From Squalus acanthias (Eukaryota): a stretch of 64,000 bases of DNA. Every line of letters starts with the position of its first letter. Position 1 is the first letter of the stretch. Shown piece after piece: positions 2,427-48,557 of this stretch. Where the stretch lies: the NCBI GenBank assembly GCA_030390025.1, contig CM059440.1, positions 33,232,001-33,296,000 of the forward strand. The letters run 5' to 3'. The notes under the pieces were generated by a model that did not search any database, was not told the origin of the DNA, and saw nothing but the letters and a program-made list of their open reading frames with translations. The translations under genes were made by a program, and so were the position numbers.

Positions 2427-3612
2427 GGCCGCGATTTTACTAACCTCGGCGAGTCCGTGGCGGGCGAAGTCGGTGGCGGGTCCCGACCCCGCTGCTGGCT
2501 CCATCCCACTGTCCAACATGATCTTCCCTTGATTGGACTTGTTAAACCCGCCCAGCGAGTTTCCCGGCCAATTAGAGAAACGGGTCTGGTGACGTCATTT
2601 GATGATGCGTCATCAGCCGGTTTCCTTAAAGGGACCATGGCCAAATTTATTTTGACATTTGTGCTGTCAGTGTTCTACAGCATTGAGGTGCTGCAAACAC
2701 TGACCAGCACTGCACAGAGGTGCACCCAGGCTCTCCCATGACTCCCTCCATATGCTTATGCAGGGAGTCACAGCACGCAGGGAGGTCCTCTTCCCTTCCC
2801 ATGTGCGGAAGAGACCTCCCCAGGAGATCAACGCAGTCTGGTTGCACATTGCACAGGAGAGCACAAGCAGGGATGTGGTCAGGAGGATCTGGGTGCAGTG
2901 CCGCAAACGTTTCAATGATCTCAGTAGATCACGAAACGTTATTACAAAGCCACACTCAACCTCATCCTGCTGTGCCTCTCATCACATCCCCATCACTCTG
3001 CCTTCCCTACCCTACTCCTGCACATTATTACACACACCAACTTACCTTGCACCTCCACCCATCCCTCTCTATCTACCTTATCACACCCCCATCTCACTAG
3101 CCACCCCTCACACTCACCCTCATCCTAGTTGAATCATACCAACTAACAACACACAAGGGCAGGCACTTGGGTGTTTTATGTAATGTTCATGTAAAGTTTC
3201 TGTTAATGTGGTGTCAAACATTGAAACCTTTATTTTCAAAACATTGCATTCTTGGACAGATTTGTGTGCACCTTTGGAAGTGGCTTAGTGAGTTGCAGTG
3301 AATGGTGAGACATAACGGTACCCCTAGCAATGGTGATGAGTGTGAAAGGAATGACTTGGGCATTGTAGGGGTGCTTTATGGTGTTGGTGTGGGGTGGTGC
3401 CAACCTGGGGTATCATGTGGCAGCCAGGGTGTACAGCGTCAAGTGAAGTAAATCTGGACTTGGTGAGACCATCCCTGGCGTCCCGGGCAGCAATGTGCTC
3501 GGGTGCTGATGCCCTGTATCCTGTGCAGCATCAGTTGATTGCGGAGAAGGTTGGTGTTGTTGTTGGTGCTGCTGGTGTGCCTGGTGCTGCTGGTGTTGGG
3601 GCTGATTGTGAC
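2427..3612. mobile_element. Non-autonomous Harbinger derivative, one end missing
   Basis: Left TIR GGCCGCGATTTT; CCAAT-TGACGTCA-CTTAAAGG promoter; degenerate Myb/SANT exon 1 (RRIWVQCRKRFNDLSRS); colinear with 18201-19937. Confidence 0.85.
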
Positions 3613-3891
3613 TAATGACGCCCGTAACCCAAGAATGAATTTTAAAAAATACCTCTATAACCTCCATTCCTTTTCTCAATCAATATCAATGCAGCTGCCT
3701 TTTAACGTTCTCAGATGACTCCGAATCATTTACCTTTCTAGGAGTCTGTTCCACATGAGCAATATTCTAAGGAAAAAGTTTTTCTAATCTCTAACCTTGC
3801 TCATGGTTCAAAAAGGTATTGTACTCTTTCCATTGGCTTGCTGTCCTTTCTGAAGTATGGGACTAAAACTGTCCACAGTATTCTACATAAC

Positions 3892-4654
3892 GGCCCAGAA
3901 ATTCGCCTCTCCGGCTTGCCGCGGGGGTAAGGATCGCGCGCGCTCTTACCTACCGCGCCTGCCGTTGTGTTTTGGGCCCACGGGAACTTCGGGTCCTGGG
4001 CCTCTCCCAACTGCCGGCGTGCAGTGCTTGCGTGTCCCAGGGGCGCAGTTAGTGCGATGCGTCCCCTGGGATCACGTGGGCCATGGAGAGCCAATGGCAG
4101 CAGACCATCTTTCATTCATAGATTTGACGGGAGACCTGTCAAATCTGTGAATTGAAATCGGCCCCAAAAGAACAGCTAAACTTAAAATAAATTAAAATAA
4201 AACCCATCACATTTATAAAATAACTATAGTTACATAAATTAACCACTTTAAACAAAAATTAAAATTTTTGAAAAAACTAAAATACTTTTTAAAAGTGATA
4301 AAAATAAACTTACCTTTCTTTAAAGTATCTAAAAAAGATAAAGCTGTTGAAAAATTTTTAAAATTATACTTAATTAACCACTTACCTTGTTGAAAATGGG
4401 TCCTGCGCCTCCTTTTTAATAGCGTAGTTTCTTCAATACTTACCCTCGTGTAGAAACCTGAAAAAAATCTAAGTTTGCTGCGTGCGCGCAGCCTCTACCG
4501 CGCACGCGGTTCACCTAGGAACCGCCCCCTTCACCATACCGGAAGTTCCGGTTTCCCGCACATGCGCAGTGCATGCAGGAAACCGGCACTTCGGGACGCA
4601 GTATGGGTGAGTACGGACTGTGTACTCACCCGGGAACGGCCGAATTTTTGGCCC
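3892..4654. mobile_element. Harbinger-type MITE
   Basis: TIRs GGCCCAGAAATTCG / CGAATTTTTGGCCC; GC-rich ends and AT-rich core; related to the element starting at ~25902. Confidence 0.7.
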
Positions 4655-4679: not shown

Positions 4680-4735
4680 AGCTAACATTGATGATTAGAT
4701 GCTTAGGAGCCTTCTGTGAAAATCCTGCCAGATAT
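4680..4735 (+). other. Candidate host coding exon (unverified)
   Basis: Acceptor tcttttgcag, donor GTAAGA; open frame LTLMIRCLGAFCENPARY; no protein recognised. Confidence 0.25.
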
Positions 4736-4814
4736 GTAAGACACACCCGTCATTACTGAATTTCCTTTGGAGTTGTTGAAATTTGCCCATTATGTAGCAT
4801 ACAGCACCTTTTTT

Positions 4815-4995
4815 TTTAATTCGTTCCTGGGACATGGGCATCACTGGCAAGGCCAGCATTTATTGCCCATCCCTAATTGCCCTCGAGAAGGTGGTGGTGA
4901 GCCGCCTTCTTGAACCGCTGCAGTCCGTGTGGTGAAGGTACTCCCACTGTGCTGCCAGGGAGGGAGTTCCAGGATTTTGACCCAGCGACGATGAA
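4815..4995 (-). mobile_element. CR1/Zenon-like LINE 3' end
   Basis: Reverse complement of the WNSLP...RFKKAAHHHLL terminus and 3' UTR seen at 23440-23608. Confidence 0.8.
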
Positions 4996-6365
4996 AATGT
5001 ATTTTTTGTACATTTCCCGTGCTTGATTATAAAATAGAATAAAAGAACTGTCTGAAGTCGATGAAGAATTCATCACTAACAGCCTCTTTAATTGGATCAG
5101 ACAAAGCTTGGTAATTCTGCCATTTTCCTCATTAGTTTCTAAAGAAAACATGCCACAATCACAAAATGTTGACACATATTAACACAAGTTAAATTCCTTT
5201 TTTCTCCCTTTTCAAGTTTCTCCCTTTTAATTAATGTGGTCTTTTAAAGCCTAGCATTCAAAATTAATTTACAATTCTAACGTATTATTGCAGTAACACG
5301 GACATAACCCTTATTTTCTATGTGTGAAAGTAATTATTTTCTCATTTTGTTTAAAATGATATATTTTAGTTCAGCCCTGCCATGTGGGCCATTCATGGTA
5401 TTTTAAATTTAATTAAAATGGATAAACAATGCTATCTGTTTGGATAGGGAATAAAGTCATACACAACTGAATACATGAATTGTAATGAATCTAATGGGAG
5501 ATATTTTGCTCTGACACGGTCGATCTCACTTTCCGCTATAACTGCAATTCCGCCTTTGGTCCTGCATAAATTGGAACATGCATTTTACATAGTTGCTTCA
5601 TATTTAGATTTCATTCAAATTAGTATCAAGCGTCTAAATAAAACAAGATGCAAAATAAAAAATTAGAAGGCAATTCTGTGATTCAGCACCTCCAGCAGAC
5701 AAAGGCAGCCACAGGGAGCACATCTTGGCAGGTGGGCAGCACCTGAACTTCTGTCCATGGCCCAGAATGTGCCTGCTATTTCTCAAGGTGCACTCCCTGC
5801 GATTTGAAAAAAAATTGTGCAGAATGATACTTTTTAATTTTAATCTCATTTCTTCACATTTCATAAGATCTTTGGATCTAATAAATTAATCTCCTCCAAC
5901 GAGACATTAAACTGAGGCCTCAACTGCCTGTTCCAGTGGTTTGGATGATCGTTAATGATCCCGTGACAAGATTTGAACAAGAGTGGGAGTTTCTCTCAGT
6001 GTCCTGGACAATGTATGTCCCTCAAACAACACCACCAAAATATCAGATTAACTGCTCAATTATCTCAGTGCAGTTAGTAGGATCTTGATGTGTGCAAAAT
6101 GGCTGCCGTGTTTCTCCGCGTAAAAGCCGTCATGCACTTCAAGGTAGTTCATTGTAGGTGAATTACTTTGAGATGTTTCCAAGAGCTAGGAATGACTACC
6201 AGTCTTTCCTATCTTTATCTTAGAATTAAACAAGTTGCCATGGGTTAACGCTACAACATTTGTCTAAATAATAACATGATGTGGAGATGCCGGTGTTGGA
6301 CTGGGGTGGACAAATGTGAGAAGTCGCACAACACCAGGTTATAGTCCAACAGCTTTATTTGAAAT

Positions 6366-6401
6366 CACAAGCTTTCGGAGCGGCTGCTCCTTCGTCAGGT
6401 G
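6366..6401 (-). ncRNA. Minimal type I hammerhead ribozyme motif (inverted copy)
   Basis: Reverse complement reads CAC-CUGACGA-A-GGAGC(agcc)GCUCC-GAAA-GC-UU-GUG. Confidence 0.75.
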
Positions 6402-6406
6402 AAGTC

Positions 6407-6441
6407 CACCTGACGAAGGAGCAGCGCTCCGAAAGCTTGTG
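6407..6441 (+). ncRNA. Minimal type I hammerhead ribozyme motif
   Basis: CAC-CUGACGA-A-GGAGC(agc)GCUCC-GAAA-GC-UU-GUG: stem I CAC/GUG, conserved core, 5-bp stem II, palindromic AAGCUU stem III. Confidence 0.75.
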
Positions 6442-8132
6442 ATTTCAAATAAAGCTGTTGGACTATAACCTGGTGTTGTGCGACTTCTCTAAATAATAAC
6501 AGGCAATATACTCCAAAATAATTCACTGTTAAAAAAAAAAGTGATGAATAATCAAGGCCAAAAGGCTGTCCATGTGAATGACCTCCTCAGCATTAAGTTA
6601 TAGACATTCTTTTGGGCCACGAGGCTGATGTGAAATGGGCGCAGGGATCGATTCCTGCGCTACAACAGGTAGACCTGAGGCCCGATCGATAGTAGCAACG
6701 TAGCACTATTTGTGCAATGATTCCATGCATTCCTTCTACTATTGGGTCGTCAATAGGACTCAGAGCTGCCCTAACCTGGTTGGTGAACTTCAAAGAATTT
6801 GCTGATTGATTGTTTAGTAAATCAATAGCTTTGCCCATTGTGGCTGGAACTTGTTATTGGATCGCTGGGTAAATTGCAAGTTTTTTCATGGTCTCATTCA
6901 TTTGGTATTTTTAGCAAAAGGATCTTAATAGATCCATTGCACGATGGGATAATTACATCAGGGAGCTATGTTCGAATATAGTGCAGGTGAGAGAATTGGT
7001 GCTGCAGTTTTGCAGTTCTATCTCTAACCAGTGCTCCCTTCAAACACAGCTCTCCACTGGGAGCACTGAATTTACTCGCTTCTATATAAATATATCTATT
7101 ATTTGCTTGATGTTCCCATGTTTCTATTTCACATCTTTTCAAGGTAATACCATCTGAATAAGCAAGTGAACAATTATCATTGAGATTAGGAGTGCTCAGT
7201 TTATTAGTACTATCATTGCTTATATGCTGGAGGAGAGACATACAGAATCATACAGCACAGAAGGAGGCCATTCGGTCCACCCGCCCTGATTTTAACTCCA
7301 GGTGGATTCCCCGCTCAGGCCTGAGTTCAAATTACAGTCAGGTCTCAATGATGTCATCGGGCTGCCACACGCATTTGTAAAGAAGGACCCTGTTGGCTCC
7401 ACGGGGGTGTCCTTGCTGCCTGCTCAGGAGAGCAGGTTAAAATCGCAGATGTTGCGATCGTGGGACCTTTCGGACAGGAAAGAGCCAGGGCGATTTTAAT
7501 TGGCCACCCGCCAGCTTTCTGCTGAGCTAATTGGGTTAAAGTCGCCCCCGATCGTGCCTGTGCTGAATGTGATGATGTTTGGTTGTAAGTAGTAAGAAAA
7601 TAAACCTTGTTTATTACACTTTGTTCAGAGTATAGTCCAGGATGTACTTTATTTCCATTTGGAAAACAGTGTTATGTTTTTAGAGATTCCTCCAGCACTA
7701 AAGAGGACTCCTGCAAGTGAATCCCTGCTCCCTGTGACCCACCGTATGACTTGCTTTGTGTGGTTTGCCCAGGGTGAAACAAAATGCTTAAGCTACACTT
7801 CCTCAGATATACATAAAAAAGACACATGATGCAAGACTTAGCTAACTCACTTAGCAATACTAAGCCTGGGCCAGCATCCATAGCATTCAATTTATACGTG
7901 GGGATTTGTCGTCAGCCTCTAGCTCAATGGCTCAGATGAACTGGGAGAAAGCTGTCACATATACCCTTAAAATTGGCAACTCCTGGCCACATAATTCGAC
8001 AAGTGGACTTCATAGGATCTTGACCTCTGCCTCTGTTCTTCCCACCCCTCTTTGTTTTGGTTTGTCCTGTAAAATACTTTTGTTGGCCTGATAGTGGCAG
8101 TTGTAGATGAAGGATCTCATGTTAAACTATCC

Positions 8133-11927: not shown

Positions 11928-13172
11928 ATGAGTGCCGTTTATACTGTCTCACCTTGGTCCTCAGAATCGGCCCACGATAAGCCCCAACACCAGCAGCAGC
12001 AGGCACACCACCAGCGGCAACAACAAGACCACCAACCTTCTCCTCAATGACCTTATGCTGCACAGGACAGAGGGCATCAGCGCAGGGCTGCACCGCACTG
12101 TCGACGATACCCCCAACACAGGATGTACAGGCAGAGGATGAGCTTCCACAACATGACTGAGCAGCAGTGCCAAAGGAGGCTCAGGCTATCGCGTCAAGTC
12201 GTCGCAGACATTTGCAGGTTGTTGGAGCAAGGGCCTGCAGCCCAGAGGACCTGGTGGACACACCTTACCAGTGGCTGTCAAACTCACCAGCACCCTCAAC
12301 TTCTTTGCCTCAGGCTCCTTCCAGGGATCTGCAGCAGACATTTACGGCATCTCGCAGTCGGCCGCCCACAGATGTATCACACAGGTCACCGATGCCCTGT
12401 TTGACAGTCAGCCAAATACATCAACTATGCCACTGATGAAGCCAGTGTTACTGAGTGGGCGTTCGGCTTTGCGGCTCTGGCTGGCTTCTCATGGGTGCAG
12501 GGCGTCATCGACTGCACACCTGTGGCCATCAGGGCACCCCATCATCACCCAGGAGTGTTTGTCAATCGCAAAGGCTTCCACTCCCTCAATGTGCAGCTCG
12601 TCTCCAACCATAGGAAGATCATCATGCATGTGTGCGCCAAATTCCCTGGCAGCTGCCATGACTCTTTCGTCCTGTGCCAGTCCACCCTCCCTCAGCTCTT
12701 CACACCTCCAAACAGATTTTCTGGCTGGCTGCTTGGAGACAAGGGCTATCCACTGAAGACGTGGCTCATGGCATCCTTGAGGAGGCCAAGTATTGAGGCC
12801 CAGGAGAGATATAATGAAAGCCACATGTCCACCAGATGTGTCATAGAGCAGACAGTAGGCATGCTGAAAATGCGCTCCAGACACCTTGACAGATCTGGAG
12901 GAGCCCTTCAGTACGCACCAGCCAGGGTCTCCAGAATCGTCATCGTCTGCTGCGCCCTGTACAACAAAGCGCAGCAGCGAGGATTAGCGCTGCATGAGGA
13001 GCAAGGCACTGAGCGCACAGCCTCTTCAGAGGAGGAGGAGCAGGAGGAGCAGGAGGAGGAGGAGGAGGAGGAGGAGGAGGAGGAGGAACCTGAGGTCCAG
13101 ATGCCAGCAGCACCTGAGCACATTGCTGCCCGGGAGGCCAGGGAGGACCGCATCATGGCCAGATTTACTTAA
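11928..13172 (+). pseudogene. Harbinger DDE transposase (HARBI1-like), disrupted
   Basis: ATG at 11928, one in-frame TGA (~12048) and frameshifts at ~12230 and ~12407. Motifs [46 protein letters not shown]; acidic poly-Glu tail. Confidence 0.9.
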
Positions 13173-13485: not shown

Positions 13486-15364
13486 CTAATGTGTCATCTT
13501 TTGCTTGCATGTGCTTCTACGAGGTGCTACCCCTATGGTTTCAGCAGAGGTAGAGGCAGCCTGCTCACTTCCCTGCTCCAACTGCTTAGACACTCTTGGT
13601 GGATGTTCTCTGGGTTTTGGAGTCTCTGATGGCCCCGCCAAAGTCTGCTCCTCCTGCGACTGTGCAGGGGCATACTCGGCCATCGTGATCCCAGGAGGCA
13701 TCTGGGGCTCTGACTGAGGGGGTGGCAATGGGGGAGAAGTGTGAGCACTTTGAGGGGAGCCCACACTTCCATGTCCCCTCTAACCATCATCCCTGTCATG
13801 GGTCACCTGCACTTCCCTGTTAGCAAGGAGCTGGAGAGCAACTTCCTGCACAGCAGTGGGGCCATGAGGACCCAAGTCTACTTTGACATCCCTCCTACAG
13901 AGGAAGTCTATGAGCCTCTGCCATCTGTTCTCCATAGATAGCATGTGAGTGACGCATTAGCTGCTCCATGCAGATGGCCATCCTTTCCATGGAAGAGCCT
14001 ACAGTCACCATCGCTTGCGACACGGTGGTGCTCATGTTGGAGATGGACTCCTCCATTCTCTGCACATTTGCAGATATCTTGGTCGCAAAACCTGTCAGAG
14101 CCTCCTGCACTCCTTCCTGCACCTCCAGGATCACCCTCTTTCCTGATGGTCCCCGAGGTTCAGCGTCTGCATGCAGCTGAGCAGAGCTGGGAGCGTCCTG
14201 CGCCCTCCGGCGAGGAGTCTCCATTGCTGTCCCTGTCTCCACCATCTCTTGCTCACTTGTGAGTTGTGAGACACCAGGTGACAACACTACTCTATCTCGC
14301 GTGGGACCCACCGAGGTGTGTGTATCTATGCTGGTGCTGGGTGTGCTCATGTCTGGTGATGGTGCACCCTCAGAGGCTGGAGGCTCCTCTGAGGAGTCGT
14401 CTTCCTCTTGCTCCTGGACAGTGGGGGGCGTGGTGTGGGGGGGGGGGGGGTGGGGAGGAGAGCTCTTGATGGACCTGTGGGAGAGTAACAAGATGACTTA
14501 AAAATGTCATATCAAGAATGGGTAACAATACCATTATGCACATGATGAACATTAACTGGCTGCTGACATCAGTCCTCATATGAGTGACTGCTGTAGGCCC
14601 TGTGGCTGTATGAGATGTAATTCTGCCATCAGGTTGTTGAGATGTCCCCCTCGCTCCGTTTCCCTCTGCCAGCTGATCTGCAACTCCTGAGACCTCCAGG
14701 GCGACCTCCTCTGCTGGAGTCAACGTGGCGAATGATGGAGGGCCACCTCCGGTTCTCTTCCTCTCCCTCTTATTGTGGGCTCTCTTTTCCTGCAAGGAGG
14801 TAAAGAGAAGGTTGAGTGAGAGTGATGGAATGAGTGGGTTACATCTTTAAAGGGTGACTATGAGGGAGTGGGGTGGCAATGCCAAAGTGCTAATGCAAAG
14901 TCGCCTCCTTCTGTGGTGTTAATTGCTAAGATTGCATTAGGATGAGGGTGCGTGTGAGGGGTGGTTAGTCAGATGGGGATGTGAGTATGTAGATAGAGAG
15001 GGATGGGTGGATGTGCAAGGTATGTTGGTGTGAGTAATGCTGTGCAGGAGTAGGGTTGGGAAGGCAGAGTGATGGGGATGTGATGAGAGGCACAGCAAGA
15101 TGAGGGTGAGTGCGGCTTTGTACTCACCTTTCTTGATCTCATGAGATCATTGAAGTGCTTCTGGCACTGCACCCAGGTCCTCCTGACCACATCCCTGCTG
15201 TTCACCTCCTCAGTCTCCAACCAGGCTCGTGTGGTCTCCTGGGGAGGTCTCTTCCACCCATCCGAAGGGAAGCGGACCGCCCAGCGTGCTCTCACTCCCT
15301 CCACAAGCATATATAGTGAGTCATCTGAGAACCTGGGTGCAGCCCTCTGTCTCTGTGCAGCCAC
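13486..15364 (-). pseudogene. Harbinger Myb/SANT-like DNA-binding protein, 3 exons, disrupted
   Basis: Exon 1 15364-15128 (GTG in place of ATG; APRFSDDSL...RRTWVQCQKHFNDL; donor GTGAGT). Exon 2 14789-14627 (EKRAHNKRERKRTGGGPP). Exon 3 from 14474, with frameshifts. Confidence 0.85.
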
Positions 15365-16427
15365 GTGTGCAAGGCTAAGCAAGACCCAAATGCTGAAATG
15401 TACTGCCTGCACACTCCTAGATGAACCTTCAAATGCAATGTGGCCATGGCTCCTTTAAAGACCACGGCTGGAAATGAGTCATCAGACCCGCACCATTTAC
15501 TAGGGCCTGGAAACGTGCTGGCCTGCCTTAATCGGCGCCATTAAGGGAAAGCCCCTCAGAGGAGCGGGATGAAAAGAGGAACGGGGTCCCGACCCGTCAC
15601 GCCGACCGCCCGCACCCGACCCGACCCAACCCGACCAGGTAATGAAAGTTCCGGCCCCTGTGTCTACTATTTTAATAAACCAGTTTAAAATAAATGAATT
15701 AACATCTTTGTGGACAAAGGCATTTCATCTGAAGGTGTCAATGTCCCATTTGGGAGAGTTTCTGCCTGGTACATATCAGGAAATTACAGATCCCCAGCCC
15801 TAATTTTCTATCTATTAATGTTAATGGATTGGAAATCACAGGCTGGGGGAGCAATTTTTCCCAGGGGTGTATCAGGAGCGACAAAGAGATGCGGTACCTC
15901 AGCTGCAACCTATACTTACAGTCCAGCGGGACTTTCAGACCCCTCACTGGAGGAACAGTAATCAGTTTCATAACTGTCACATGTAAAAACTTCCAAATTC
16001 GAACCCCATATCATACCGATAAAGACATCAAATTACCTTCATATATTATTCTGCTACAGTATTCACAGACCGAAAACAATCAAGTAATTGAGTTTTCTCA
16101 TGCAATACTGCATCAATTTGTATGCATTATGAGGAGCTTACAAAGGCATTTATCTTGTATATTCTAGTTAGTGGTTTAAATCAATATGTTTTCCTTTCTT
16201 TATTAGCTGATTCATGCAGAATAAATGAGATGCTTTTTAAGTTAGAATTTTGTTATATAAGAGGGTTCACTTCTTCTATATCAGAGGGAGCAGATGTATT
16301 GGAGAGAAGTGACTTAATGAGCAATGGTGTTTACTTAGTCTGCCGTCTCTCAGCTCGGTGCTGTTTGGCCTTTCCACACAGCCCTTAACCCTTTGCCTAC
16401 ATAACAACAATGACTACACTGGCTTAT

Positions 16428-16620
16428 GCTGGGGTACAGTGCTATGGGAGCTGGCAATTGCACCCAAAGTGGCACTCTTTATAACGTGAACCCAGACATT
16501 GAGTGTTGGCAAACTGTTTGACCATGGGAGAGCACAGATCAGCTTGACCCTGCCCTCCCTCACCTGACAACCACACACTTACCAGCGGGAGTCACTGGTT
16601 TGTGATAAGGAGGTGCCCTG
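16428..16620 (-). mobile_element. LF-SINE-like element, 3' half
   Basis: gctggggtacag...ccaaagtggc...gagtgttggcaaactgtttgacc...ccagcgggagtcactgg matches the recalled LF-SINE consensus and other copies in this window. Confidence 0.65.
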
Positions 16621-18054
16621 GGCACAGTTACCAGCAGGAGTCACTGGTTTGTGATGAGGAGGTGCCCTGGGCACAGTTACCAGCAGGAGTCACTGGTTTG
16701 TGATGAGGAGGTGCCCTGGGCACGGTCGCCAGCGGGAGTCGCTGGTTTGTGATGAAGAGGTGCCCTGGGCACAGTTACCAGCGGGAGTCACTGGTTTGTG
16801 ATAAGGAGGTGCCCTGGGCACAGTTACCAGCAGGAGTCACTGGTTTGTGATGAGGAGGTGCCCTGGGCACGGTCGCCAGCGGGAGTCGCTGGTTTGTGAT
16901 GAGGAGGAGCCCTGGGAACAGTTACCAGCGGGAGTTGCTGGTTTGTGATGGGGAGGAGCCCTGGGCACGGTCACCAGCGGGAGTCGCTGGTTTGTGATGG
17001 GGAGGTGCCCTGGGCACGGTCGCCAGCGGGAATCGCTGGTTTGTGATGAGGAGGTGCCCTGGGCACGGTTACCAGTGGGAGTCGCTGGTTTGTGATGAGG
17101 AGGTGCCCTGGGCACAGTTACCAGCGGGAGTCGCTGGTTTGTGATGAGGAGGTGCCCTGGGCACAGTTACCAGCAGGAGTCGCTGGTTTGTGATGGGGAG
17201 GAGCCCTGGGCACAGTTACCAGCAGGAGTCGCTGGTTTGTGATAAGGAGGTGCCCTGGGCACGGTTACCAGCAGGAGTCGCTGGTTTGTGATGGGGAGGA
17301 GCCCTGGGCACGGTCACCAGCAGGAGTCACTGGTTTGTGATGGGGAGGAGCCCTGGGCACAGTTACCAGCGGGAGTCGTTGGTTTGTGATGAGGAGGTGC
17401 CCTGGGCATGGTCGCCAGCGGGAATCGCTGGTTTGTGATGAGGAGGTGCCCTGGGCACGGTTACCAGTGGGAGTCGCTGGTTTGTGATGAGGAGGTGCCC
17501 TGGGCACAGTTACCAGCGGGAGTCGCTGGTTTGTGATGAGGAGGAGCCCTGGGCACAGTTACCAGCGGGAGTTGCTGGTTTGTGATGGGGAGGAGCCCTG
17601 GGCACGGTCACCAGCGGGAGTCGCTGGTTTGTGATGAGGAGGTGCTCCGGGCACGGTCGCCAGCGGGAGTCGCTGGTTTGTGATGAGGAGGTGCCCTGGG
17701 CACGGTTACCAGTGGGAGTCGCTGGTTTGTGATGAGGAGGTGCCCTGGGCACAGTTACCAGCGGGAGTCGCTGGTTTGTGATGAGGAGGTGCCCTGGGCA
17801 CAGTTACCAGTGGGAGTCGCTGGTTTGTGATGAAGAGGTGCCCTGGGCACAGTTACCAGTGGGAGTCGCTGGTTTGTGATGAGGAGGTGCCCTGGGCACA
17901 GTTACCAGTGGGAGTCGCTGGTTTGTGATGAAGAGGTGCCCTGGGCACAGTTACCAGCGGGAGTCGCTGGTTTGTGATGAGGAGGTGCCCTGGGCACAGT
18001 TACCAGCAGGAGTCGCTGGTTTGTGATGAGGAGGAGCCCGGGGCACGGTCACCA
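16579..18054. repeat. 49-bp minisatellite, ~30 copies
   Basis: Unit GTTACCAGCGGGAGTCGCTGGTTTGTGATGAGGAGGTGCCCTGGGCACA; period 49 (16627 to 16676). Confidence 0.97.
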
Positions 18055-39477: not shown

Positions 39478-41165
39478 GGGTAATTTTAACCCCCCAACAT
39501 GGGTGGGTCAGGTGGGAAGATAAAATTGAAAAAATTTCAAACCCGAACCCAGCCCACCTCGAACCCGCCCACTTCTGGTTTTAATGGAGGCGGGACGGTG
39601 GACGGGCGACCAACCTGCTCTCAGGAGATGGGTTTCAATGCGGCTGTGCGTCTATGATTTTTTCTTTCTTCCAGCTTTAACGCCAGCTGTCCGGGTTTCC
39701 CTGGACTCGGGAAACCCGGCAGCTGAAGGCAGGCAAGAACTGGTGGATGGAACAGGTAAGTGCCTTTCCAGCACTGCTTGTAAGCCAGGAGGAGCAGAAG
39801 TGCTTCACCCGGCCTGCCAAGCTATCTTGTTAACCTCCCCATGATCAGAGCTCCCCCTCCCGCGCAATCCGATGCCCTCCCCAGGTCCTCCACAGCCCCC
39901 CTGCGATCTGCTCCATGTGCTCCCCACGATCTTCTCCTCTCCTCCCCTGATCTCTCCCAGACCCCACCCATCGATATCCCCTTGACCCCCGATCACTCCA
40001 GGCACCCCATCGATGTCCCCCTCACTGACCCCGATCTCACCGGAGGCCCCCATCGATTGGATTGGGGATCGGATCCCCCCTCTTGGGATCGGACCCTCTC
40101 AGGTCAGGGATTGGACCCCCACCCACCCGGGATCGGACCCCTTCTCCCCCAGGTCAGGGATCGGACCACCCCTGGGGTTAGGGATTGGACCCCCCCTGGA
40201 TTGGACCCCCCCAGGTCAGGGATCAGACCCCCGGGTCAGGGATTGGTCCCCCCCCAGGATCAGACCCTTTCCCCCCGGGTCAGGGATTGGTCCCCCCCCA
40301 GGATCAGATCCCTTCCCCCCTGGGTCAGGGATTGGTCCCCCCCCAGGATCAGACACCCCCACCGGGTCAGGGATTGGACCCCCCCAGGATCAGACCCCCG
40401 GGTTAGGGATTGGACCCCCCCAGGATCGGACCCCTTCCCCCCTGGGTCAGGGATTGGACCCCCCCAGGATCAGAGCCCCCACCCCCCAGGTCAGGGATTG
40501 GACCCCCCCAGGATCAGAGCCCCCACCCCCCCCCTGGGGTCAGGGATTGGACCCCCCCAGGATCAGACCCCTTCCGCCCCGGGTCAGGGATTGGACCCCC
40601 CCAGGATCAGACTCCCCCCCCCGGTTCAGCGATTGGACCCCCCCAGGATCAGACCCCCCCCCCCCCGGATCATGGATTGGACCCCCCCAGGATCAGAGCC
40701 CCCCCCCCGGGTTAAGGATTGGACCCCCCCCAGGATCAGACCCCTTCTCCCCCGGGTCAGGGATTGGATACCCCCAGGATCAGACCCCCCCTGGGTCAGG
40801 GATTGGACCCCACCAGGATCAGACCCCTTTCCCCCTGGGTCAGGGATTGGACACCCCCAGGATTAGACCCCCCTCCGGGTCATGGGTTGGACGCCCCCAG
40901 GATCGGACCCCTTCCCCCCCGGATCGGACACCCACTCCCCCTCCCCTTCGGGGTTGGGGCTCGGACCTACCCGGGTCTGTGGTCGCTTCTCCAGCCTCCC
41001 CTGCCCGACTGGAAGCCAAGCCTGTCCATCAGGCTGACATCCGAGTGGGGTTCTTGTCAGTGACATCACACGCCACTGTGGAATTTAAACCCCACAGCGT
41101 GCGGGGAGACCTGGGCTTCCGGGTTTCCTGCACGCTGCCGGTGGGTCCAAAGGTTAAAATTCCCC
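39478..41165. mobile_element. Harbinger-type MITE with an expanded internal minisatellite
   Basis: TIRs GGGTAATTTTAACC / GGTTAAAATTCCCC; flanks TGA/CGA. Confidence 0.75.
40085..40930. repeat. Irregular ~33-45-bp C-rich minisatellite
   Basis: Recurring GGGTCAGGGATTGGACCCCCCCAGGATCAGACCCC with variable C tracts. Confidence 0.92.
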
Positions 41166-43930: not shown

Positions 43931-44119
43931 CTCTTCCTGTCTTTTTCTGTGGTCGACATTTATGCACCACTCGTTCTGAGAGAGAGAGAGAGATTCGGAG
44001 AGAGAGAGAGAGAGACTTCTACATTGACTCAACGCTTTGTGAGGTAGTTTTGCCTAGTTCATCCTAACTTTGCTGCTACTTTCGTTGCTGTACCTCATTA
44101 CTTTTCTGGCAAAGAGAAT

Positions 44120-45280
44120 ATGGGGGCTGCAATGATTGGGGGCGTCGTCCTGCTCCAGCTCAATCGGAGGAGAGTGAGACGCAGACAGAGAGTGGCAATG
44201 ATGGCCAGACGGAGGAGGGCCATCAGGCGCATGTACAGGAGAGCTTACCCTCCCAGGGTATATCGTGAACAGCTCTCCTACATCCACATGTCCGAGGAGC
44301 TGTGTTTGCGAAGGCTGCGATTCAGCAAGGAGGTGGTCACTGAGCTCTGCCACCTGCTGCAGCCAGATCTGCAGCCTCAGCTGAGGTCCAGGACGTCTCT
44401 GTCGGTGGCAGTGAAGGTCACAGTGGCTTTGAACTTCTACGCCACTGGCTCATTCCAAGCTGCTGTTGGGGACCTCGCCAATATCTCCCAGTTTGCGGTG
44501 CATCGCTGCATCCGGCAGGTCACCAATGCCCTCTTCACAAGGAGACGAGACTTCATCTCCTTCCCTATGACCCCAGACAAGCAGCATGACCGTGCTATGG
44601 GCTTTGCGAGGGTAGCGGGCTTCCCCATGGTGCAGGGCGCCATTGACTGCACGCATGTGGCTTTGCGTGCTCCGCGAGAGAATGCAGAGGAGTTCCGGAA
44701 CAGAAAGGGGTTCCATTCCTTGAATGTGCAGTTGGTCTGTGACCACAGACAGGTGATTCTCGCTGTCAATGCCCACTATCCGGGCAGCTGCCACGATGCT
44801 TTCATCCTGCGCCAGAGTACTGTGGCAGAAATTTTCGAGGCACCGCATCAGCCAGTTGGTTGGCTTCTGGGGGACAAGGGGTACGCATTGAGCACCTGGC
44901 TGATGACACCGCTCCGTGCGCCAAACACCCCTGCTGAGCTGCGGTACCAGGAAAGCCAACAAGCAACGAGGAACATTATTGAGCGCACAATCGGCGTGCT
45001 CAAACAACGATTCCGCTGTCTGGACCATTCCGGAGGAGCCCTGCAGTACTCGCCTGAGCAAGTTTCCAAATTCGTAGTGGTGTGCTGCATGTTGCACAAC
45101 ATGGCAATCCTCAGGACGCAGCCAATGCCACCAGGCCTTGCAGCACCACAAGAGGAGGAGGAGGAAGAGGAGGAACAGGCCGAGGACGATGATCAGCAGC
45201 AGCACCAAGGCAGGAGGGCGGCCCACAATGGTCAAACTGCAAGGGCCGTCCGTCAACGACTAATAGCAAGCCGCTTCTAG
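44120..45280 (+). CDS. Harbinger DDE transposase (HARBI1-like nuclease), intact, 386 aa
   Basis: Uninterrupted ORF: N-terminal HTH region (RRLRFSKE, FYATGSFQ), catalytic GAIDCTH / LLGDKGY / [28 protein letters not shown], acidic tail. Confidence 0.96.
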   Translation: MGAAMIGGVVLLQLNRRRVRRRQRVAMMARRRRAIRRMYRRAYPPRVYREQLSYIHMSEELCLRRLRFSKEVVTELCHLLQPDLQPQLRSRTSLSVAVKVTVALNFYATGSFQAAVGDLANISQFAVHRCIRQVTNALFTRRRDFISFPMTPDKQHDRAMGFARVAGFPMVQGAIDCTHVALRAPRENAEEFRNRKGFHSLNVQLVCDHRQVILAVNAHYPGSCHDAFILRQSTVAEIFEAPHQPVGWLLGDKGYALSTWLMTPLRAPNTPAELRYQESQQATRNIIERTIGVLKQRFRCLDHSGGALQYSPEQVSKFVVVCCMLHNMAILRTQPMPPGLAAPQEEEEEEEEQAEDDDQQQHQGRRAAHNGQTARAVRQRLIASRF

Positions 45281-45546: not shown

Positions 45547-47563
45547 CTACTTTTTGCCCTTCGAGGGTGATCTCCTTCCCTTGCGCACTTCCCCCCTTCT
45601 AACCCTACTGCTCCTCCGTAATGGGACCTCAGTGGCTGCAGCAAGGCTGATGGAAGGCTGCTGCTTGTCAGACCCTGACACTGCAGATGCCCCTGAAGGA
45701 CGGCCTCGACCACTTCTGGGCCTGGAGGGCCCGGCTGCAGACTGCACCAACTCTGCATGGGCGGCAGCAGTCTGTCCTACAGGCGGTGGCAAGTGCAGTG
45801 GAGAAGTGACAGTGTTGGCAGCAGGAATGCTGTCATCGTGAGAGAGGACAGCAACTCCCTGCTCGCCCGACACACTGGCACTCCCACGGGGCAGCACTTC
45901 AGCATCCGGAGCAATTTGCCGGAGAACAGATTGCTGGCCTGCTGCGGCGCGGTGACAGCCCCGGGGACATGTGCACGAACCATCGAGGATGGCAGCAGTC
46001 AGTGCTCGCGTGGCCTCAATCTGAGTCTGCATGAGAGCAGTCTCAGATGGGTTCCTGGCAGCCAGTGACTGAATTGCAGCAGTAAGCTTTAGTGTGGCAT
46101 CCGCCTGTGCTACAGCGAAGTGCTCCACACTCCTTGCCAGTGCCTCAATGCATTCGGGCACCCTTCCCACTGCACCCATGAGCTCAGTGTGCATGCCCAC
46201 CGCCTGGCTGTTCATTTCTGCAATCAGCCGCTCCTCCTCTGCGTCCATTGCATTAGGAGTGTCTGGCATACTCTCCCTCTGGGGAGAAGGCTCCCGTTCT
46301 TCCCTCCCCCCCCATGGCGTTGCTGCAGCCCGCTGGGTCCTGGAACTTCACCATCATCAGCCCCTTCCCCCCTGCTCCCCCGTTCTTCCCTCCCCCCCCA
46401 ATGGCGTTGCTGCAGCCCGCTGGGTCCTGGAACTTCACCATCATCAGCCCCTTCCCCCCTGCTCCCCTCCGGGGAAGGCGTGTTCCCAGTGTGGCCATGG
46501 GCTTCCTCGGGAGAGGGTGGCACTGATGCTCCGGCTTCCTCTTCCTCCTCAGCTGCAGCATCACTCCCAGTGGCAGCTTCAGGGACCATCTCCTCAGCTG
46601 GTGAATCACCATCTGAAAGCAGGGAGGTACAAGAGTGGCTTTAGTGTGAGGACAGGGTGGCAGTAAGGGAGGAATAAGTGCAGCGAGTTAGCAAGTTGGA
46701 TTGAAAGTGTCAAAGGCTGGTATTGTGAGGGACAAGTGGAAGGACAGAGGACAAAAAGGTGATGACCTTACCATTGCTGTCCACAACGGGGTCGGCGTCT
46801 CCAGTGGCGACGGGACCGATCACCCGGCTTGCCACAATCCTGTGGACGCGCTCCTCCAGATCGCTGAGGGGTTGCAGCTGAAGCCGCCCTCCACCCGTCC
46901 GTTGCTGCTGTCTCCGATTATGAGCCAGCTTGGCCTGCAAGAAAAAGGACAGCATCTGAGTCAATATACAGCCATGGTCTTGCCTGATGTGCCTCCCATA
47001 GGTGAATAGCCCTTACAATATGCAGCCATGGTCTTGCCTGATGTGCCTCCCATAGGTGAATAGCCCTTACAATATGTAGCCATGGTCTTGCCTGATGTGC
47101 CTCCCATAGGTGAATAGCCCTTACTGTATGCAGCCATGGTCTTGCCTGATGTGCCTCCCATAGGTGAATAGCCCTTACTGTATGCAAAGTGTGGAATGTG
47201 TGTGTGTGTTTGATGAAAGGGCCATAGGTGTTGCATGAGTGTTGTGCATTGGGGTTTTAAGACCCTCTGGCCATAGAGTGAGGTTGAGATGGAGGGATGG
47301 AGAGGTATTGAGAAAAAGCCACTCACCCTGACGACCCGAGTGAGGTCGTTGAACTTTTTGCGGCACTGGACATGGGTCCTGGGCACCATGCTCCTGGAGG
47401 AGACGCTCTGAGCCACCTCCCTCCACACTCTTCTGAACTCGCGTGGCAAAGGCCTCCTGCCACTCTCCGGGAACAGCATGCATCGTCTGCGCTCCACTGC
47501 GTCAACCAGAGCATCCAAGGCCCGCTCGGTGAAGCGATGAGCGCGTTCTCTCACCCTCTCCAT
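45547..47563 (-). CDS. Harbinger Myb/SANT-like DNA-binding protein; exons 47563-47327, 46934-46772, 46612-45547; one 1-nt frameshift at ~46313
   Basis: MERVRERAHRFTERAL...W...RTHVQCRKKFNDL | AKLAHNRRQQQRTGGG | acidic linker, helical region, basic tail; canonical GT-AG sites with matching phases (0, then 1). Confidence 0.88.
46966..47186. repeat. 54-bp tandem repeat, 4 copies, in Myb intron 1
   Basis: GCCATGGTCTTGCCTGATGTGCCTCCCATAGGTGAATAGCCCTTAC... at 46971, 47025, 47079, 47133. Confidence 0.95.
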
Positions 47564-48557
47564 GCTTGGCAGCAAAATGGATTACAGGTCTCTCCAGGCT
47601 GAGATTCAAGGCTGCAATGAGCAGGGTGTGGCTGGGAAGCAAGTGGCCCCCCCCGCTTTAAGAAGTGTCCGGCGCCAGTGTGTCTGTGTTCCCTCGCTAA
47701 CTGGCAGCAGCTGCGCTGCGCTCGTGCGCTGAGGTAGCGCCTCACTCCTAGGCCTTTGCGCCTTAAGAGAGGTGTGCAGCGCCTAATTTAGCGCTCCACT
47801 CACCTCCCGGGGCGGTAAAAGTGAAGTTTCCTGTCAGTGCCGATAATTAGCGCCAGGCGCTAATATTTGCACGCGGACGATATTTGCGCCCCAAATGGGG
47901 CGCGACCTAATTTCTACCCCTTAGTGTTTAGCTGCAGGAAATTGAGGATAATCCAAGAGCCTAACGTCACATAGGTAGTGGAATGGTCGGGACAAGTGGT
48001 AGAAAGGTGGAGTTGGATGTTGTCAATATACATGTGGGACCTGACCCCCATGTCTTCAAATAATGTCGTCAAGGGGAAGTATGTAGATGAGGAAGAGGAG
48101 GGGGGTCAGGGTGGGGGGAGGGGGAACAAGGATAGATACTTGAAAGTCACCAGAAGAAAAGGTGCAGGAAGAGAAGCCATCACTGAAATTCAGCACAAAT
48201 TGGCATTATATCAACACTCTTACTCAGAGAGGGTGGTTGGGATGGAATTATTGCACTACTGCAGTCGGAGGTGTTCTTCTGAAGTTGGGGGTTAAGCATA
48301 TTATTGTAACAGTATAGAAAGATGTAAATCCTATCCCTAACTACAAGCTGGGAGGGTTTGATGCTGACACTAAAGGGAAGATTTTCTGATTGTGTGCTTC
48401 TGGTGCAGAGTTGCGCTCACTGGGAGTGGATATTGGAACATTATGCGAATATTGTCCGTGGTGATTTTATGTCCATTAAAATGAATGGAGGGAAAATTGT
48501 GGGCCTTGTCAAATTCCTGCTATGTGCTCCCAATGAGCAACGCCCTGCACCTGAATA

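What the first reader, a model, noticed from the sequence alone, without database searches (positions are those of the whole stretch)
6263..6501. 211-bp insertion with two back-to-back hammerhead ribozyme motifs and a 14-bp TSD
Seen: an inverted repeat whose arms each begin with a minimal hammerhead core (CUGACGA, stem II GGAGC/GCUCC, GAAA, UU), only 5 nt apart, flanked by TCTAAATAATAACA. Stem III is just the palindrome AAGCUU, and there is an extra A after the core. Established: Penelope-like elements carry minimal hammerheads in their pseudo-LTRs, thought to act as dimers, and often insert with an inverted copy. Inference: a transcript from either strand holds one sense ribozyme plus its antisense arm, so it could switch between self-cleavage and an ~80-bp hairpin. 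It may be a non-coding mobile unit of its own.
Basis: partly seen in the sequence, partly recalled or inferred. Interest (0 to 1): 0.7.

Follow-up and report, generated by a model that had tools for sequence, protein, structure and literature searches.

The report
Mirror-image stub of Penelope retrotransposon
This 211-base palindrome is one of at least 2,669 mirror-image pieces in this genome made from the ribozyme-motif-bearing end of a common Penelope-like jumping gene, likely built anew at each landing rather than spreading as a ribozyme element of its own, so it is ordinary apart from the hints its junctions give about how these elements insert.

Summary
Window 6277-6487 is an insertion flanked by a 14-bp duplication, and three related organisms hold the empty site. 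Both arms are the hammerhead-bearing pseudo-LTR end of an abundant Penelope-like retrotransposon whose full-length copies (RT plus a GIY-YIG-like end) sit in this genome. At least 2,669 loci have back-to-back cores, but 49 sampled show 33 different junctions and the window's junction motif occurs at only 7 places. Inverted pLTR with one-sided tail, opposite-strand minimal hammerheads and the extra A are published. Less ordinary: arms stop at a sharp point 7 nt before the core, in an initiator-like motif 30 nt below a TATA-like box, usually followed by an extra C. This fits run-off copies of the capped 5' end of the element's RNA, primed from both target strands and joined head to head (inferred). 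Copies show no clear pile-up at the ribozyme cut site. This scan noted the same structure and similar mechanisms before in other genomes and elsewhere in this one. Low interest.

The parts
6263..6276 (.). Left target-site duplication (14 bp; last 2 bases also match the element's continuation into its start codon)
   Evidence: one copy at the empty site in three runs
6277..6317 (-). Unpaired 41-nt 'tail'; its end falls on the A of the inferred start codon of the parent ORF
   Evidence: fixed end at about +120 in the 90 copies picked by a tail motif and +117 to +136 in 48 of 49 picked by the junction
6277..6405 (-). Long arm: parent positions -7 to +120 (0 = C of CUGA), with one extra base in loop II
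   Evidence: 97-99% identical over 128 bases to both pLTRs of full-length copies L145 and L146
6365..6402 (-). Minimal type I hammerhead motif, 4-bp stem I, predicted cut between 6369 and 6368
   Evidence: sequence; descriptor scan; activity not tested
6406..6406 (+). Extra C matching neither arm's template; likely a copy of the RNA cap
   Evidence: the cap reading is inference
6407..6489 (+). Short inverted arm: parent positions -3 to +79 (last 2 bases shared with the right duplication)
6407..6442 (+). Minimal type I hammerhead motif with stem I cut to 3 bp, predicted cut after 6438
   Evidence: sequence; activity not tested
6488..6501 (.). Right target-site duplication

Best explanation
The palindrome is a very short insertion of an endonuclease-bearing Penelope-like retrotransposon, made of two head-to-head copies of its pLTR end, and the mirror half was likely built during this one insertion rather than copied from a hairpin master. 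Proposed route, all inferred: the element's protein cuts both target strands about 12-14 bp apart. Each nick primes reverse transcription inside the element's RNA, one at the tail site (about +120) and one at the inner site (about +80 to +90). When the template is an RNA that starts at the pLTR promoter (-7), both copies run off after only 85-130 nt, often adding a C opposite the cap. Repair then joins the two 3' ends head to head, bluntly or by 1-4 bases of microhomology. The ribozyme motifs would be passengers, copied from uncut RNA, and the stub is likely dead on arrival.
For: Shown: parent with pLTR-ORF-pLTR, 920-residue open frame, Pfam RVT_1 E 2.9e-9 and 1.2e-8; L145 also carries an inverted pLTR and a duplication. 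62 of 88 positionally sampled copies have an adjacent inverted arm; their 5' ends run continuously from +70 to beyond -316, and 27 of 88 look like the window. 33 spacers in 49 loci; 7 places share the window's junction motif. Of 47 tail arms reaching -7, 14 stop exactly there, 24 stop over the next 308 positions and 9 run further. -7 is the A of TCACTTC, 30 nt below TATATA. Genome-wide the next base is the templated G 15,496 times, C 2,888, A or T 1,421; 10 of 20 sampled A/T cases are a variant subfamily, not a stop (by eye). Two contig joints in another organism also break at -7 with a single C (table 5c). 22 of 62 inverted arms reach more than 5 nt further 5' than the tail arm, so they were not simply copied from it. 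Loop II insertions are in one arm only in 13 cases and shared in 4; L269 has a different insertion in each arm. Arm 3' ends cluster near +120 and +80 to +90. Published: an anole PLE protein cuts and extends both strands, starts at two internal sites bounding the tail, is predicted to dimerise and mainly uses uncut RNA (PMC11167929); an extra G from the cap is invoked for L1 and SVA (PMC2912911).
Against: No RNA 5' end was observed, so the start site and cap are inferred. Much of the C excess could come from the partner arm, which is C-rich (4 of its first 8 bases); 24 of 30 tail arms leaving the template at -7 show C, more than half but not decisive. The G44A variant is shared by both arms or by neither in 44 of 48 loci (Fisher p 3.6e-9), so the arms are not drawn from a random RNA pool; the same RNA, the same source locus or later arm-to-arm conversion is needed. 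Later deletion at the palindrome centre could mimic unequal arms. Two junctions recur (8 and 6 of 49). Pfam did not score the GIY-YIG domain; it was read by eye. Samples came from the first 55 Mb of one contig and from exact-match patterns that favour young copies.
Confidence: 0.8

Rival explanations
1. Same parent, but the mirror half arises by fold-back or self-priming: one cDNA, or an antisense template as Arkhipova et al. 2013 proposed, primes on itself and copies back to the second nick.
For: G44A concordance in 44 of 48 loci; mean differences 1.5 between arms of one locus against 2.36 between loci. Proposed in PMC3846280 (Discussion). The tail arm is more often the one complete to -7 plus C (24 against 4).
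Against: 22 of 62 inverted arms hold sequence absent from the tail arm; loop II insertions mostly differ between arms; short arms can also start at -7 with the extra base (4 of 49).
Confidence: 0.12
2. The hairpin is a non-autonomous unit (retrozyme- or SINE-like) that is transcribed and re-inserted whole by the parent's protein, and its ribozyme is switched by the antisense arm.
For: High copy number (2,669), narrow size, own duplications (41 of 49 at 10 bp or more), two recurrent junctions; animal retrozymes are proposed to derive from pLTRs (10.64898/2026.07.22.740005).
Against: Junctions are diverse and continuous with long truncated copies. Recurrent junctions sit on both G44 and A44 backgrounds and in both orientations to the tail, as expected from repeated microhomology joining. 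Units are head to head, not tandem, and do not start at the cut site. No promoter box inside the stub.
Confidence: 0.05
3. The stub is what is left of a longer inverted insertion whose middle was deleted afterwards because long palindromes are unstable.
For: Long inverted insertions exist (for example L150 with 2.4-kb arms).
Against: Random deletion does not explain the single-base pile-up at -7 or the extra C.
Confidence: 0.03

Closest known systems
Endonuclease-positive Penelope-like insertions with inverted pLTR, one-sided tail and TSD (Adineta Pen2a_Av, PMC3846280; Fig. 2 legend of PMC8557442)
   Same: Head-to-head inverted pLTR, a 30-40-nt tail on one arm (41 nt here), a duplication of about 10 bp, TATA-like box and TCACT initiator-like motif in the pLTR.
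   Different: Here the coding body is missing altogether and thousands of copies stop at one base; the passages read give no such stop point or extra C.
Minimal hammerheads of metazoan PLEs (PMC4209133)
   Same: Core, extra base between 9 and 10.1, G10.1-C11.1, palindromic 15.2-16.2, short stem I; dual motifs on opposite strands already noted.
   Different: Published opposite-strand pairs were about 100-700 bp apart; here 11 nt. H17 is mostly U.
Poseidon element of the green anole (PMC11167929)
   Same: Two internal 3' end points about 40 nt apart; no sign that ribozyme-cut RNA is the main template.
   Different: In the anole element the ORF starts within the ribozyme and initiation lies over 100 nt into the ORF; here the tail ends at the start codon. 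This parent has the Cys linker of Neptune/Nematis.
L1 twin priming (PMC2912911)
   Same: Both target strands prime, the two cDNAs join by microhomology, a duplication results.
   Different: L1 arms copy different parts of one RNA; here both arms copy the same 80-90 nt.
Non-LTR retrozymes (10.64898/2026.07.22.740005)
   Same: Non-coding, type I hammerhead, pLTR-related.
   Different: Retrozymes are head-to-tail tandems with two same-strand ribozymes; this is head to head with one per strand.

Membership tests
EN+ Penelope-like element insertion | Parent ORF with RT | tested here: met
   RVT_1 above cut-off in 2 of 2 full-length frames; DKG and YIDD motifs visible
EN+ Penelope-like element insertion | C-terminal GIY-YIG endonuclease | tested here: inconclusive
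   VYLI...YIGET and downstream Cys/His residues seen by eye; no Pfam hit
EN+ Penelope-like element insertion | Direct pLTRs flanking the ORF and holding a hammerhead | tested here: met
   L145 and L146
EN+ Penelope-like element insertion | Inverted pLTR, one-sided 30-40-nt tail, TSD | tested here: met
   window and 49 loci
Neptune/Nematis clades | CX2-5CxxC linker before the endonuclease | tested here: met
   CX4CxxC in both frames; definition from PMC8557442
Neptune/Nematis clades | Placement in an RT tree | not tested
   no named reference set held; Neptune and Nematis not told apart
Minimal type I hammerhead | Core, stem II, palindromic 15.2-16.2, base between 9 and 10.1 | tested here: met
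   336 motif hits, 88 distinct, overlapping loci counted twice; A at 9.1 in 335, GC in 327
Minimal type I hammerhead | Stem covariation | tested here: inconclusive
   stem I pair 3: C-G 294, U-A 12, U-G 8, unpaired 22; stem II pair 3: A-U 323, G-U 12. Few events, close relatives, stem II was part of the filter
Minimal type I hammerhead | Self-cleavage | not testable with these tools
   needs an assay
Non-LTR retrozyme | Tandem units with two same-strand ribozymes | tested here: not met
   head to head, one per strand
Self-propagating hairpin unit (MITE/SINE-like) | Copies share one internal junction and both ends | tested here: not met
   33 spacers in 49 loci; 7 places with the window's junction motif

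The most novel reading that the evidence does not exclude
Penelope-like elements integrate by double-ended priming on a pair of RNAs: a protein dimer holds two copies of the capped 5' end, perhaps zipped by the hammerhead's palindromic stem III acting as a dimerisation signal rather than as a cutter. Each nick makes a 'strong-stop'-like cDNA from one of the two internal start sites, and stubs like this are the events in which neither cDNA jumped onward. That would explain the inverted pLTR and the one-sided tail of the whole class.
Probability: 0.25. Interest if true: 0.6.

Novelty: new member of a known kind. Interest (0 to 1): 0.2.

Why it matters
The single insertion matters little. The family is a natural record of thousands of integration events of a class whose later integration steps are unresolved (PMC11167929 calls them yet to be validated; PMC3846280 proposes antisense self-priming). 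If the stop at -7, the extra C and the unequal arms mean what they seem to, the origin of inverted pLTRs becomes directly testable with the existing purified-protein assay.

Tried and rejected
Rfam: no hammerhead model, only generic hairpins below threshold. Pfam on the 153-residue C-terminal piece: nothing. PDB: nothing under E 0.3. Ribozyme cut site as a 5' end point: 559 matches leave the template at +29 against 219 at +28; of 30 inspected, about 9 were point changes and 7-8 were joins explained by stem I self-complementarity (by eye), so no clear pile-up. Preference for CR1-like targets (lead from note e1-9922716): 7 of 88 flanks against 10 of 88 control stretches hit the one CR1-like reference used, not supported but only one reference. 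Co-folding two ribozyme segments did not give the stem III dimer; inconclusive. Sequencing runs: no RNA holder listed and all runs are contigs, so they say nothing on expression or RNA ends. The first 30 BLAST-ranked loci were kept out of the junction and concordance counts because ranking favours the window's own junction. Dropped rows: L035 and L080 (duplicates of neighbours) from 90; 1 of 50 listed loci not analysed; L167 (15-nt short arm) left out of the 48. Literature searches listed no paper on a cap-marked stop point or double priming in PLEs; listings only, subscription papers and bioRxiv supplements unseen, and I opened no supplements.

Full report
Observation. The cores are 11 nt apart, the + copy keeps only 3 bp of stem I, and 41 nt at the left end are unpaired. 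Contigs from three runs of related organisms, about 9% different in the right flank, go straight from 6262 to 6488, so this is a true insertion with a true duplication. Rfam has no model that scores the motif.

Copies. A 43-base tail motif has 6,595 exact matches in the 3.7-Gb genome. I took the first 90 listed on contig C1 and dropped two duplicates. The tail end is fixed, and the other end varies from 50 bases to several hundred. 62 of 88 have an adjacent inverted arm and 27 of 88 resemble the window. Positions below count from the C of CUGA.

Parent. A long copy led to an endonuclease-like frame, and a protein search found full-length frames. L145 and L146 have pLTR, a 920-residue open frame and pLTR; the window's long arm matches both pLTRs at 97-99%. 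Pfam gives RVT_1. The DKG motif, a CX4CxxC linker and GIY-YIG-like residues are visible by eye; the linker marks Neptune or Nematis in PMC8557442 (passages). No tree was built. The tail ends at the inferred start codon. That the host is a cartilaginous fish is recalled resemblance and the wording of earlier notes, not a test.

Is the hairpin a unit of its own? 2,669 loci have two cores back to back within 24 nt. In 49 of the first 50 listed there are 33 different spacers; the commonest occur 8 and 6 times, on both subfamily backgrounds and in both orientations to the tail. The window's junction motif occurs 7 times, two of them in a local duplication, with different backgrounds and tail sides. 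Duplications are mostly 12 bp (22 of 49) and A+T-rich (69% against 55%).

What is already published. PMC4209133 (abstract, results, discussion read) describes the extra base between positions 9 and 10.1, the palindromic stem III, low activity, and dual motifs on opposite strands 100-700 bp apart. PMC3846280 (passages and Discussion) and PMC8557442 (passages) describe the inverted pLTR, one-sided tail, duplication and a TATA/TCACT promoter motif, and the former proposes self-priming on an antisense template. PMC11167929 (main text) shows both strands cut and extended, two internal start sites bounding the tail, and uncut RNA as the main template. The retrozyme preprint (abstract, introduction, part of methods, passages) concerns tandem units. 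PMC2912911 (two passages) gives twin priming and the cap-derived G. PMC3681739 (three passages) added only that inverted copies yield siRNAs in flies.

Mechanism, inferred. Arms stop at -7: 14 of 47 tail arms that reach it end there, against 24 over the next 308 positions. That base is the A of TCACTTC, 30 nt below TATATA, which fits a polymerase II start (initiator consensus and spacing recalled). The next base is C 2,888 times and A or T 1,421 times, against 15,496 read-throughs; half of 20 sampled A/T cases are a variant subfamily. The window has exactly this: stop at -7, one extra C, then the partner from -3. The partner arm is C-rich, so the C excess is suggestive, not proof. The arms behave as two separate copying events: 22 of 62 inverted arms extend beyond the tail arm, loop II insertions are mostly one-sided (13 against 4), and one locus has a different insertion in each arm. 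Against two random templates, G44A agrees between arms in 44 of 48; the same RNA, the same source or later conversion must be assumed. The 3' ends near +120 and +80 to +90 match two start sites about 40 nt apart. Together this favours priming from both target strands, run-off at the capped 5' end and head-to-head joining.

The ribozyme. Family variation keeps the core and shows one compensatory stem I change in a minority. Copies do not clearly start at the cut site. In this stub a read-through transcript of either strand makes the antisense arm first and would fold into a -172 kcal/mol hairpin, so the likelier fate is double-stranded RNA, not a switch. No RNA evidence was available.

Earlier notes. 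I stated my reading before looking. A word search then returned 420 findings with these words; the eight shown reach the same verdict, two with the double-priming or capped-end idea. They are unchecked and not counted as support.

Verdict. A real, young, ordinary Penelope-like stub. New member of a known kind; interest 0.2. The boldest reading left open, a paired-RNA double-priming mechanism for the whole class, has about 0.25 probability.

Noticed in passing
L024, L028, L036, L193, L209 (insertion sites): Five loci of the 230 checked insert at the same site of a host repeat, next to CTCTATTTAT(A/G)AA. May be a favoured target or just an abundant A+T-rich repeat; the sets were not a random sample.
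   Followed up: partly
L195, L196, L198, L200 (junctions): Four of 20 loci share a junction that skips the ribozyme core of the partner arm, on different backgrounds and arm orientations; may be a structure-guided jump across stem II.
   Followed up: no
loop II, window 6382 and many loci: One-base insertions in loop II (AGCA 34, AGCC 30, plain AGC 259 of 336) occur on both G44 and A44 backgrounds and usually in one arm: an error hotspot or recombination between templates.
   Followed up: partly
L123:about 3470-4560 and 4688-5231; L119 region: A roughly 1-kb unrelated stretch lies between a tail end and a hammerhead palindrome and is repeated in inverted form; possibly foreign sequence captured by the element.
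   Followed up: no
L263/L264 (G000 C4): A palindromic stub sits in a local 1.2-kb duplication, and one copy has tails on both arms.
   Followed up: partly
window 12405-13172 and 44048-45280: Open frames that look like Harbinger-type DDE transposases, with Myb/SANT-like partner frames near 14969-15454 and 46961-47581 (family names recalled, not scanned).
   Followed up: no
window 16574-18054 and 40059-40925: Tandem arrays, the first with a unit near 49 bp.
   Followed up: no
window 6070-6114: A short, very high-copy repeat end lies 150 bases left of the insertion and is also present at the orthologous site.
   Followed up: no
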